Of a stretch of 64,000 bases of DNA, positions 62,596 through 62,797 are shown piece after piece. Each line of letters opens with the position of its first letter. Positions within the stretch are counted from its first letter, which is position 1. The position numbers were made by a program, and so were the translations under genes. The DNA comes from an uncultured Candidatus Actinomarina sp. (lineage in GTDB: Bacteria; Actinomycetota; Acidimicrobiia; Actinomarinales; Actinomarinaceae): assembly GCA_902593795.1 (NCBI GenBank), contig CACJJR010000003.1, forward strand, positions 23,626-87,625, written 5' to 3'. The notes below the pieces were generated by a model. That model did no database searches. It saw only the letters and a list, made by a program, of their open reading frames with translations, and was not told the origin of the DNA.

Positions 62596-62619
62596 ATAAG
62601 TTTCTTATAATTATCTTAA

Positions 62620-62766
62620 CGAGCAATTAGCGCCAGGCCTTGAAAAAGGTGACGAGGTAGTATGTTATCGAAAAATTCGGCGGATGCATACTCGGCTCTG
62701 CAGTCGTAATAAATTGTTTAAAAACATGGAGAAATCTATGAACAGAGATAATTTATAGCAGTCTTT
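62620..62766 (+). ncRNA. glmS: glmS ribozyme (GlcN6P-dependent self-cleaving riboswitch)
   Basis: The conserved core is read directly:
- A|GCGCCAG (expected cleavage between 62630 and 62631).
- GACGAGG.
- TATCGAAAAATTCGGCGGATGC.
- CTCGGC, plus an AT-rich peripheral P3/P4-like domain.

It lies immediately 5' of glmS. Outer boundaries are approximate. Confidence 0.85.
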
Positions 62767-62797
62767 ATTTTAACCTGCTCGTTTGAATGGAGATAAA

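What the first reader, a model, noticed from the sequence alone, without database searches (positions are those of the whole stretch)
62596..62797. glmS ribozyme in an actinobacterial-type glmM-glmS locus, with flanking 8-nt complementarity
The 202-nt glmM-glmS spacer contains the hallmark glmS ribozyme core. The elements are AGCGCCAG at the cleavage site (between 62630 and 62631), GACGAGG, UAUCGAAAAAUUCGGCGGAUGC and CUCGGC. An unusually AT-rich peripheral domain follows.

The ribozyme is best known from Firmicutes. I cannot say from memory how common it is in Actinobacteria, so its presence in this synteny is worth recording.

AACGAGCA (62619-62626, upstream of the cleavage site) is perfectly complementary to TGCTCGTT (62776-62783, just before the glmS SD GGAG). 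This pairing would be lost after self-cleavage. It could link cleavage to translation initiation or RNase access.
Basis: partly seen in the sequence, partly recalled or inferred. Interest (0 to 1): 0.6.

Follow-up and report, generated by a model that had tools for sequence, protein, structure and literature searches.

The report
glmS ribozyme with cleavage-spanning clamp helix
The spacer holds an ordinary glmS self-cleaving riboswitch, but a conserved helix joins the RNA on either side of the cut and competes with a hairpin that hides the ribosome-binding site. Cutting may therefore switch off translation directly in this tiny marine actinobacterium, which lacks the nuclease (RNase J) that normally reads out this ribozyme.

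Summary
Rfam's glmS model (RF00234) hits window 62618-62765 at 84.5 bits against a cut-off of 37. The hit lies in the 202-nt glmM-glmS spacer of a ~1.07-Mb, 34% GC genome, which fits Candidatus Actinomarina.

The ribozyme itself is not novel. I found it in 52 of 65 genomes of the order and 82 of 401 sampled genomes of the phylum.

The 8-nt flanking complementarity is also real:
- Both arms are as conserved as the catalytic core across 46 distinct relatives.
- 98.8% of cells pair, with one compensatory A-U to U-A change.
- RNAalifold predicts the helix unaided.
- Other families of the phylum have flank helices of different sequence at fixed positions.

Two new points:
- The 3' arm overlaps a conserved local hairpin that buries the Shine-Dalgarno site. 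In folding models limited to the 5' UTR, the flank helix wins before cleavage (SD free 0.90) and the hairpin wins after it (SD free 0.20). This holds in 43 of 46 relatives.
- RNase J, the known effector nuclease, is absent from all 65 genomes of the order.

Best reading: self-cleavage removes an anti-sequestor and shuts off glmS translation. This rests on computation only.

The parts
61288..62595 (+). glmM (phosphoglucosamine mutase) gene, directly upstream. No terminator-like site follows it on the + strand.
   Evidence: ORF list. NCBIfam TIGR01455 scores 354 bits, the best hit but below the curated cut-off of 447. Terminator scan.
62583..62611 (+). Predicted glmS promoter inside the spacer: -35-like CTTACA/TTACAA (62583-62589) and -10 TATAAT (62606-62611).
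   Evidence: Best promoter-like site in 61000-64000, 10 of 12 matches. The -10 box (TATAAT, TATACT or TATCAT) is near-invariant in 46 relatives at 0.15 bits entropy. It ends exactly 6 nt before the 5' arm in 46 of 50 sequences; two sit at 5 nt and two are regex mis-hits. The transcription start is inferred, not mapped.
62618..62625 (+). 5' arm of the flank helix (AACGAGCA). It is the predicted first nucleotides of the transcript and lies upstream of the cleavage site.
   Evidence: Entropy 0.07 bits, as low as the catalytic core. Pairs with 62776-62783. Promoter plus arm is unique in the genome.
62629..62630 (+). Predicted self-cleavage site, A(-1)|G(+1) of AGCGCC.
   Evidence: Alignment to RF00234. 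The position of the scissile bond in the family is from established knowledge (Winkler et al. 2004, cited in PMC3997798).
62630..62761 (+). glmS ribozyme body: P1, the core (GACGAGG, UCGGCGGAUG), P2, P3, an AT-rich P4/P4.1 peripheral domain, and the P3.1 pseudoknot (62698-62701 with 62758-62761).
   Evidence: cmscan, 84.5 bits. RNAalifold finds 13 pairs with compensatory changes. P3.1 covaries as CUGC/GCAG (26) against CUAC/GUAG (19).
62762..62774 (+). 5' strand of the local hairpin (UCUUUAUUUUAAC). Its lower part, 62762-62770, is the anti-SD strand.
   Evidence: RNAfold of the trailer gives -9.4 kcal/mol in the window and -12.8 in most relatives. 94.3% of cells pair, against 40-55% in slid controls, but there is no significant covariation.
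62776..62783 (+). 3' arm of the flank helix (UGCUCGUU). It overlaps the hairpin's loop (62775-62780) and the top of the hairpin's 3' strand (62781-62783).
   Evidence: Entropy 0.08 bits. Pairing and one compensatory change at 62625/62776. Retained in the second genus, where the neighbouring sequence is unrelated.
62781..62793 (+). 3' strand of the local hairpin (GUUUGAAUGGAGA), which contains the Shine-Dalgarno GGAG at 62789-62792.
   Evidence: P(SD unpaired) is 0.99 before cleavage and 0.00 after it in the 5' UTR model of the window.
62798..64000 (+). glmS (glutamine--fructose-6-phosphate transaminase), which runs off the end of the window.
   Evidence: NCBIfam TIGR01135 scores 520 bits against a cut-off of 418.

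Best explanation
The spacer encodes a canonical GlcN6P-dependent glmS ribozyme with its own promoter.

**The extra helix.** In addition to the known fold, the first 8-10 nt of the transcript ((U)AACGAGCA, upstream of the scissile bond) pair with UGCUCGUU(G), which ends 5 nt before the Shine-Dalgarno site. This forms a closing helix that spans the cleavage site.

**What it competes with.** The helix is mutually exclusive with a conserved local hairpin (62762-62793). That hairpin would otherwise pair the U-rich trailer with GAAUGGAGA and bury the SD.

**Proposed switch.**
- Uncleaved RNA: flank helix formed, SD open, glmS translated.
- High GlcN6P: self-cleavage severs the 12-nt leader. The helix becomes a weak bimolecular duplex and is lost.
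- The trailer then refolds into the hairpin, the SD is hidden and translation stops. The untranslated mRNA is presumably cleared by RNase E.

**Why this lineage would need it.** The order lacks RNase J, the enzyme that reads out glmS cleavage in Bacillus.

**Shown:** ribozyme identity, conservation and pairing of the arms, overlap with the hairpin, absence of RNase J.

**Inferred:** the transcription start, mutual exclusivity (from pseudoknot geometry), the switch itself, and the effect on translation.
For: **Ribozyme**
- 84.5 bits, full model.
- Present in 52 of 65 genomes of the order and 11 of 12 high-quality ones.
- P3.1 covaries.

**Flank helix**
- Arm entropies are 0.07 and 0.08 bits, against 0.4-1.4 bits for adjacent segments.
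- RNAalifold predicts it as the outermost helix without prompting.
- 98.8% of 404 cells pair, against 23-51% when partners are slid. The covariation score exceeds 500 of 500 shuffles.
- A-U becomes U-A at 62625/62776 in two species. A-to-G changes give G.U in three. The outer pair is U.G in 36 sequences and C-G in 8.
- The arms persist in the second genus although the linker and SD context differ.

**Analogous helices elsewhere in the phylum**
- Positionally fixed flank helices with other sequences occur in other families of the class and phylum.
- In family f21 the pair next to GAGAGG is C-G, U.G, A-U or G-C.
- In family f31 the outer helix is a different 9-11 bp in each genus.
- A sequence's own leader and trailer pair better than cross-family combinations, p = 0.003.

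**Switch (5' UTR model, 46 distinct sequences)**
- P(flank helix) before cleavage averages 0.93.
- SD free is 0.90 before cleavage and 0.20 after it.
- The drop is at least 0.3 in 43 of 46.
- In a growing-transcript series the flank helix forms as soon as the 3' arm is made.

**RNases**
- RNase J model TIGR00649: 0 of 65 genomes of the order reach the cut-off, while 4 of 4 other genomes of the class exceed 490 bits.
- RNase E/G is present.
- The canonical read-out is RNase J1 acting on the 5'-OH product (PMC3997798, PMC10810187).
Against: - There is no experimental data.
- Within the order the arms hardly vary, so covariation rests on one compensatory event plus G.U-type changes.
- Four species have an A.C mismatch at the inner pair.
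- The hairpin pairs well but shows no significant covariation, because its SD strand is invariant.
- Its SD-covering lower stem is weakened in about half the species (SD 0.2-0.4 free after cleavage) and lost in two. In the sister genus the SD hairpin does not overlap the 3' arm.
- When the first codons are included, the energy model finds weak leader-to-coding pairings and P(flank helix) falls to a mean of 0.21. The prediction is therefore model-dependent.
- Pseudoknots and tertiary structure are not modelled, and mutual exclusivity is a geometric argument.
- Flank helices also occur in relatives that do have RNase J, so the helix is not simply a substitute for it.
Confidence: 0.45

Rival explanations
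1. **Structural clamp only.** The flank helix is an accessory closing helix that insulates the ribozyme from AU-rich flanks and helps it fold. It has no role after cleavage. Repression follows from decay of the 5'-OH product by some other nuclease.
For: The helix encloses the whole ribozyme and is predicted as the outermost helix. Cleavage-spanning helices occur in many families, including ones that have RNase J. Earlier unchecked notes of this scan report the same in a CPR bacterium and in Anaerolineae. In the sister genus the helix and the SD hairpin do not overlap.
Against: It does not explain why the 3' arm sits exactly on the loop and upper stem of a conserved hairpin that abuts or covers the SD. 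It does not explain why, in family f21, the 3' arm is complementary both to the 5' arm and to the SD. The genome lacks RNase J, the only enzyme shown to read out the 5'-OH product.
Confidence: 0.25
2. **5'-end protection.** The helix base-pairs the triphosphorylated 5' end of the primary transcript. This shields it from 5'-end-dependent attack (RppH-like pyrophosphohydrolase, the RNase E 5' sensor). Cleavage removes this cap-like structure and the mRNA becomes unstable.
For: The conserved -10 box ends 6 nt before the arm in 46 of 50 sequences, which puts the predicted start at the first paired nucleotide. RNase E cleaves RNAs with a base-paired or triphosphorylated 5' end much more slowly than those with a free 5'-P (PMC3997798). 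RNase E/G is present. 18 of 29 leaders from Bacilli carry an SD-like, possibly stabilising, element upstream of the cut.
Against: The cleaved product carries a 5'-OH, which is not a good activator of RNase E (established knowledge). The transcription start is not mapped. Read-through from glmM is possible because no terminator was found. This rival is compatible with the main explanation rather than exclusive of it.
Confidence: 0.2
3. **No RNA pairing.** The two 8-mers are conserved for unrelated reasons, such as initial transcribed sequence and a translation enhancer, or as DNA half-sites for a regulator. Their complementarity is incidental.
For: Both arms are almost invariant in the order, so sequence-specific constraints cannot be excluded. 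Covariation rests on one event.
Against: - The two-sided change in L120 and L142 keeps the pair.
- A-to-G changes that give G.U make sense only at the RNA level on this strand.
- The 8-mer occurs nowhere else in the window, and the promoter-plus-arm motif is unique in the genome.
- Different-sequence helices sit at the same position in other families.
Confidence: 0.07

Closest known systems
Bacillus subtilis glmS ribozyme / GlcN6P riboswitch (Rfam RF00234) with RNase J1 read-out
   Same: Same RNA family. It has the same cleavage-site and core sequences, P1-P4 and the P3.1 pseudoknot, and the same position in the glmS leader just downstream of glmM. The negative-feedback logic is presumably the same.
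   Different: - An extra helix pairs the leader upstream of the scissile bond with the trailer. It is not part of the Rfam model, and no paper I could search describes it.
- The trailer hairpin competes with this helix and covers the SD.
- The peripheral domain is very AT-rich (24% GC).
- The organism has no RNase J.
Translational riboswitch expression platforms (sequestor / anti-sequestor helices over the SD, for example the E. coli lysC or thiM type)
   Same: Two mutually exclusive helices decide whether the SD is single-stranded. The 5' arm acts as the anti-sequestor.
   Different: The switch would be thrown irreversibly, by covalent removal of the anti-sequestor through self-cleavage. Ordinary platforms switch by ligand-induced refolding of an intact RNA.
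   Same: Self-cleavage is converted into a change in SD accessibility.
   Different: In those designs cleavage liberates the SD (ON). Here cleavage is predicted to let the SD be sequestered (OFF). This case is natural and uses the glmS ribozyme.
5'-terminal stabilising structures and STAB-SD elements (ompA 5' hairpin; cryIIIA STAB-SD, Agaisse & Lereclus 1996, cited in PMC3997798)
   Same: A leader element at or near the 5' end could protect the mRNA, and it is lost on processing.
   Different: Here the 5' end pairs at long range across a 150-nt ribozyme rather than in a local hairpin. Protection is only inferred.

Membership tests
glmS ribozyme (Rfam RF00234) | Covariance-model score at or above the curated gathering score | tested here: met
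   84.5 bits against 37, model positions 1-167 of 167. The same hit appears in the whole-genome search.
glmS ribozyme (Rfam RF00234) | Conserved cleavage-site and core sequences (A|GCGCC, GACGAGG, AUCGA...UUCGGCGGAUG) | tested here: met
   All are present and aligned to the consensus. They are invariant or nearly so in 46 relatives.
glmS ribozyme (Rfam RF00234) | Helices P1, P2, P3, P4/P4.1 supported by covariation | tested here: met
   RNAalifold on 50 sequences gives 45 pairs, 13 of them with compensatory changes, including P2, P4 and P4.1.
glmS ribozyme (Rfam RF00234) | P3.1 pseudoknot between the P3 loop and the 3' tail | tested here: met
   CUGC/GCAG in 26 sequences, CUAC/GUAG in 19, one mismatch.
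glmS ribozyme (Rfam RF00234) | Located in the 5' leader of glmS | tested here: met
   glmS (TIGR01135, 520 bits) starts 33 nt after the Rfam hit.
glmS ribozyme (Rfam RF00234) | GlcN6P-dependent self-cleavage | not testable with these tools
   Needs an in vitro cleavage assay on a transcript of 62618-62830.
glmS ribozyme regulatory system as defined in Bacillus (cleavage, then RNase J1 decay) | RNase J encoded in the genome to degrade the 5'-OH product | tested here: not met
   TIGR00649: 0 of 65 genomes of the order reach the cut-off (0 of 12 high-quality ones). One 367-bit frame has an internal stop. 4 of 4 other genomes of the class exceed 490 bits.
SD-sequestering translational expression platform | A helix that pairs the SD, conserved among relatives | tested here: inconclusive
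   The hairpin is predicted in 44 of 46 relatives and 94.3% of cells pair. Covariation is not above shuffles. The part covering the SD is weak in about half and lost in two.
SD-sequestering translational expression platform | A mutually exclusive anti-sequestor helix whose formation depends on the signal | tested here: inconclusive
   The 3' arm overlaps the hairpin loop and upper stem. A pseudoknot holding both would need a 0-1 nt loop to span 8 bp (my geometric inference). The models switch in 43 of 46, but they depend on the assumed start and on leaving out the coding region.
5'-terminal protective stem | Transcript 5' end lies within the helix | not testable with these tools
   Inferred only from the conserved -10 box 6 nt upstream.

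The most novel reading that the evidence does not exclude
glmS ribozymes may have a second, undescribed read-out that is widespread outside the Bacillus paradigm.

The leader upstream of the scissile bond would be an anti-anti-SD (or anti-sequestor). It is held by a cleavage-spanning helix to a pyrimidine-rich or hairpin-forming trailer. Self-cleavage releases that trailer to occlude the ribosome-binding site, which turns RNA cleavage directly into translational shut-off.

This would be the main read-out in lineages without RNase J, such as Actinomarinales. It would be an added layer elsewhere: in Actinomycetota families where the 5' arm resembles the SD and the 3' arm is complementary to both it and the SD, perhaps in Bacilli with their SD-like leader motif, and in the CPR and Chloroflexota cases noted earlier in this scan.
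Probability: 0.3. Interest if true: 0.75.

Novelty: new variant of a known kind. Interest (0 to 1): 0.5.

Why it matters
**For the field.** The glmS ribozyme is the textbook case of a metabolite-activated ribozyme. Its accepted output is RNase J1 decay of the 5'-OH product (PMC3997798, PMC10810187). Here the ribozyme sits in a 202-nt spacer in an organism whose median intergenic spacer is 2 bp (PMC7771536) and which has no RNase J. Cleavage must therefore be read out some other way.

**What is on offer.** A conserved helix across the cut site that competes with an SD-hiding hairpin gives a concrete and easily tested mechanism: cleavage-triggered translational shut-off. Similar flank helices in other Actinomycetota families suggest the current family model and mechanism are incomplete outside Firmicutes.

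**Practical use.** It is a compact natural design for an OFF ribozyme switch that works without a dedicated nuclease.

Tried and rejected
- **RNAduplex of leader against trailer, with shuffles.** Not informative in GC-rich relatives because large loops are allowed. I replaced it with a contiguous-helix score.
- **Single-sequence shuffle p-values in GC-rich families.** Weak: 6 of 35 below 0.05. I relied instead on positional consistency, pair-type variation and own-versus-cross pairing.
- **MAFFT plus RNAalifold on family f21.** It did not return the flank helix because the short arms were misaligned by one column. I read the arms out per sequence.
- **Shuffling the 3' arm to test SD complementarity in f21.** Not discriminating, because shuffled pyrimidine tracts still pair with purine tracts.
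- **The 3' arm as a direct anti-SD in Actinomarina.** Rejected. UGCUCGUU has only 3 bp to the SD. The anti-SD is the U-rich strand just upstream.
- **Similarity of the 5' arm (AACGAGCA) to the core GACGAGG, and possible pairing of the 3' arm with the core.** Noted but not supported by anything further, so dropped.
- **AACGAGCA as a generic promoter-proximal motif.** Rejected.
- **The look-up of encoding contigs.** Found nothing.
- **Key glmS papers not held.** McCown 2011 and 2012, Collins 2007 and Ferre-D'Amare 2010. I measured the phylogenetic distribution myself instead of citing it.
- **The look-up of sequencing runs.** Closed, so no transcript 5' ends could be checked.
- **Firmicutes control through glmM loci.** It yielded only one ribozyme, so I used a class-level genome search instead.

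Full report
**1. The observation**

The region 62400-64000 was read directly.
- glmM (TIGR01455, 354 bits) ends at 62595.
- glmS (TIGR01135, 520 bits) starts with ATG at 62798 and encodes MCGIVG.
- The spacer is therefore 62596-62797, 202 nt.

A scan of the whole window against Rfam gives one riboswitch-type hit. It is RF00234 (glmS) at 62618-62765 on the + strand, 84.5 bits against a gathering score of 37, E 5.5e-18, covering the full model.

Two coordinates need correcting, by my own count:
- AACGAGCA is 62618-62625.
- The scissile bond is A62629|G62630.

TGCTCGTT at 62776-62783 and GGAG at 62789-62792 are as stated. The peripheral P3-P4 domain has 24% GC against 52% for the core.

The 8-mer occurs only twice in the 64-kb window, and those are exactly the two arms. 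The best contiguous leader/trailer helix beats dinucleotide shuffles at p = 0.023.

**2. Organism and context**

The window lies in a 1.07-Mb assembly that is 89% complete, with 32-38% GC. Its order holds 65 species-level genomes of about 1 Mb. Other members of its class are GC-rich and 2-4.8 Mb.

Earlier unchecked notes of this scan call the genome Candidatus Actinomarina, class Acidimicrobiia. That paper does not mention glmS, riboswitches or RNases.

The gene order is rplQ, an unassigned 181-aa ORF, truA, rplM, rpsI, glmM, the ribozyme, then glmS.

**3. Distribution of the ribozyme**

| Group | Genomes with RF00234 |
|---|---|
| Order | 52 of 65 (11 of 12 high-quality) |
| Other genomes of the class | 12 of 24 |
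| Phylum sample | 82 of 401 (52 of 254 genera) |
| Bacilli, for comparison | 55 of 61 |

A glmS ribozyme in an actinobacterium is therefore ordinary.

The full architecture is present here. RNAalifold on 50 sequences of the order finds 13 pairs with compensatory changes. The P3.1 pseudoknot covaries perfectly, as CUGC/GCAG in 26 sequences and CUAC/GUAG in 19.

**4. The flank helix within the order**

I oriented and aligned 50 loci, 46 of them distinct.

*Conservation*

| Segment | Entropy (bits) |
|---|---|
| 5' arm | 0.07 |
| 3' arm | 0.08 |
| Catalytic core | 0.09-0.12 |
| Between the -10 box and the 5' arm | 1.37 |
| Between the 5' arm and the cleavage site | 0.51 |
| 3' linker | 0.40 |
| SD-to-AUG spacer | 0.99 |

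*Pairing*
- RNAalifold predicts the arms as the outermost helix without being told.
- For a 9-pair helix, 98.8% of 404 cells are standard pairs, against 23-51% when partners are slid by 1-3 columns. The covariation score exceeds all 500 shuffles.

*Informative variants*
- L120 and L142 have AACGAGCU with AGCUCGUU, an A-U to U-A change and probably a single event.
- L016 and L119 (AGCGAGCA) and L125 (GACGAGCA) give G.U pairs.
- The extra outer pair is U.G in 36 sequences and C-G in 8, the latter in at least three lineages.
- Four species have CGCUCGUU, an A.C mismatch at the inner end.
- The window alone has T at 62784, where the others have G.

In the second genus of the order (L124), ACGAGCA and UGCUCGU persist although the linker and the SD context are unrelated.

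A near-invariant -10 box (TATAAT, TATACT or TATCAT) ends exactly 6 nt before the arm in 46 of 50 sequences. The predicted transcription start is therefore the first nucleotide of the helix. This is inferred, not mapped.

The promoter-plus-arm motif is unique in the genome.

**5. Flank helices elsewhere in the phylum**

*GC-rich members of the class.* Leader and trailer pair with unrelated sequences:
- CCGGAACC/GGUUCCGG
- GGGUCGGAcGAG/CUCcUCCGACCC
- GAGGAUCACGC/GUGUGAUCCUC, 11 bp, p = 0.003
- A family-wide xAGGAC/GUCCUx helix in which x covaries as C-G, U.G or U-A. It extends to 10-14 bp in two genomes.

Over 13 partly related sequences, Fisher's combined p is 1e-4.

*Phylum level (39 loci).* The helices are specific to each family but fixed in position.

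| Family | Flank helix |
|---|---|
| f21 | GAGAGGA, about 20 nt before A-1, pairs with UCCUCUC right after P3.1 in all 12 parsed sequences. The adjacent pair is C-G, U.G, A-U or G-C. |
| f44 | UAGGGGA/UCCCCUA |
| f31 | An inner AGAGAGA/UCUCUCU plus an outer 9-11 bp helix that differs in every genus |

A sequence's own leader and trailer score higher than cross-family combinations: 20.9 against 18.5, Wilcoxon p = 0.003. Single-sequence shuffle tests are weak in GC-rich DNA, with 6 of 35 below 0.05.

In f21 the 3' arm is also complementary to the SD region in at least 10 of 12 sequences, and the 5' arm resembles the SD.

Earlier AI notes report a helix bridging the glmS cleavage site in a CPR bacterium and in Anaerolineae. 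I did not check those. I found no paper in the searchable library that describes such a helix. Several key glmS papers are not held.

**6. What the helix competes with**

Folding the trailer alone shows a conserved hairpin.
- In the window it is UCUUUAUUUUAAC (62762-74), loop CUGCUC (62775-80), then GUUUGAAUGGAGA (62781-93), at -9.4 kcal/mol.
- Most relatives have G at 62784 and reach -12.8 kcal/mol.
- Its lower stem pairs the SD GGAG.
- Its upper 8 bp (AUUUYAAC/GUUGGAAU) are almost invariant in the genus.
- 94.3% of cells pair against 40-55% in slid controls. Covariation is not above shuffles, because the SD strand does not vary.

The 3' arm of the flank helix is made of this hairpin's loop plus the top of its 3' strand. 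The 5' arm, (Y)AAC-GAGCA, repeats the hairpin's own YAAC and extends it into the loop.

If both helices formed together they would make an H-type pseudoknot. Its last loop, 0-1 nt long, would have to span 8-9 bp. I therefore regard the two helices as mutually exclusive. This is my inference from geometry.

**7. Folding models**

I fixed the canonical ribozyme helices and blocked the other ribozyme nucleotides.
- The window's full leader (62618-62812) has the flank helix as its minimum-energy structure, with P = 0.68 and the SD unpaired at 0.66.
- The 3' cleavage product forms the hairpin with P = 0.95, and the SD is unpaired at 0.04.

I then restricted the model to the 5' UTR, from one nucleotide before the arm to the nucleotide before AUG, and ran all 46 distinct sequences.

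| Quantity | Result |
|---|---|
| P(flank helix) before cleavage | mean 0.93; at least 0.8 in 42 of 46 |
| SD free before cleavage | mean 0.90 |
| SD free after cleavage | mean 0.20; about 0 in 21 sequences, 0.19-0.40 in 23 |
| Drop of at least 0.3 | 43 of 46 |

Exceptions:
- L120 and L142 have the SD free in both states.
- L124, the sister genus, has the SD hidden in both states by a separate hairpin.

In a growing-transcript series the flank helix has P = 1.0 as soon as the 3' arm is made. It stays at or above 0.83 until the AUG.

Caveat: when about 10 codons are included, the model finds weak, irregular pairings between leader and coding region, and P(flank helix) falls to a mean of 0.21. 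The two forced states differ by only -1.4 +/- 2.0 kcal/mol.

After cleavage the helix becomes bimolecular. My nearest-neighbour estimate is about -10.5 kcal/mol at 37 C for 8 bp. At one molecule per very small cell that favours dissociation.

**8. The missing nuclease**

In Bacillus the 5'-OH product is degraded by RNase J1 (PMC3997798). A 2023 study still uses that model and mentions no flank helix or SD sequestration (PMC10810187).
- The RNase J model TIGR00649 finds nothing over its cut-off in any of the 65 genomes of the order, including the 12 high-quality ones.
- One 367-bit frame carries an internal TAG.
- All four other genomes of the class that I tested score above 490 bits.
- RNase E/G is present in the window's genome and in 7 of 8 tested relatives of the same genus.

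The ribozyme is thus kept, in a genome with almost no intergenic DNA, without its known effector.

**9. Interpretation**

The best-supported reading is a canonical glmS ribozyme carrying an extra, cleavage-spanning helix. That helix acts as an anti-sequestor of the ribosome-binding site. Self-cleavage detaches it, the trailer refolds, the SD is hidden and translation stops.

Rivals, of which the first two are partly compatible with this reading:
- A purely structural clamp.
- Protection of the 5' terminus.
- Coincidental conservation, which is unlikely.

Everything beyond sequence conservation and pairing statistics is computational inference.

**10. Verdict**

| Claim | My estimate or rating |
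|---|---|
| Observation | confirmed |
| First reading | supported |
| The ribozyme itself | already known |
| Flank helix with competing SD hairpin in an RNase J-less lineage | new variant of a known kind |
| The helix forms | about 0.75 |
| The full switch mechanism | about 0.45 |

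Noticed in passing
whole genome G000 and the 64 other genomes of its order: RNase J (TIGR00649) is absent from all 65 genomes (0 over the cut-off), while RNase E/G is present. All four other genomes of the class that I tested have RNase J. G071:C8:7772-9133 holds a 367-bit RNase J-like frame with an internal TAG.
   Followed up: partly
Bacilli loci L186-L215 (alignment A5): 18 of 29 glmS leaders carry a strong SD-like AAAGGAGGA 20-52 nt upstream of the ribozyme cleavage site, with no start codon after it. 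The same motif is in 21% of random windows. Downstream there is a conserved GGAAUGRCGGGGGCA..CCCC hairpin and a UGYCYCCG anti-SD next to the real SD. This could be a STAB-SD-like stabiliser, or an anti-anti-SD that cleavage severs.
   Followed up: partly
phylum-level loci L170-L184 (family f21): The 5' arm (GAGAGGA), the 3' arm (UCCUCUC) and the glmS SD (for example GAGAGGAGA) form an arrangement that looks like anti-anti-SD, anti-SD and SD around the ribozyme, in at least 10 of 12 genomes.
   Followed up: partly
class-level loci L009, L114, L115, L116: A GNRA-tetraloop hairpin (loops GUGA, GCAA, GAGA) sits between the flank helix and the cleavage site in one family of the class.
   Followed up: no
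L214 and L215 (Bacilli): A terminator-like hairpin followed by a U-run (AAAAAAGCGCCCGAAGCGACGCUUCUUUUU) lies between the ribozyme and glmS.
   Followed up: no
window 59104-59649 (+): A 181-aa ORF between rplQ and truA has no NCBIfam match at E <= 1e-10.
   Followed up: no
window 61288-62595 (+): GlmM scores 354 bits on TIGR01455, below the curated cut-off of 447. Its best identity to any relative fetched from named genomes is 39%. It is a divergent GlmM.
   Followed up: no
window 62784: The window has T where 45 of 46 distinct relatives have G. This removes the outer U.G pair of the flank helix and weakens the SD hairpin from -12.8 to -9.4 kcal/mol. It could be a strain variant or an assembly error.
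   Followed up: partly
window 27826-29336 (+): Four tRNA genes: three clustered at 27826-28081 and one at 29263-29336, upstream of the ribosomal-protein region.
   Followed up: no
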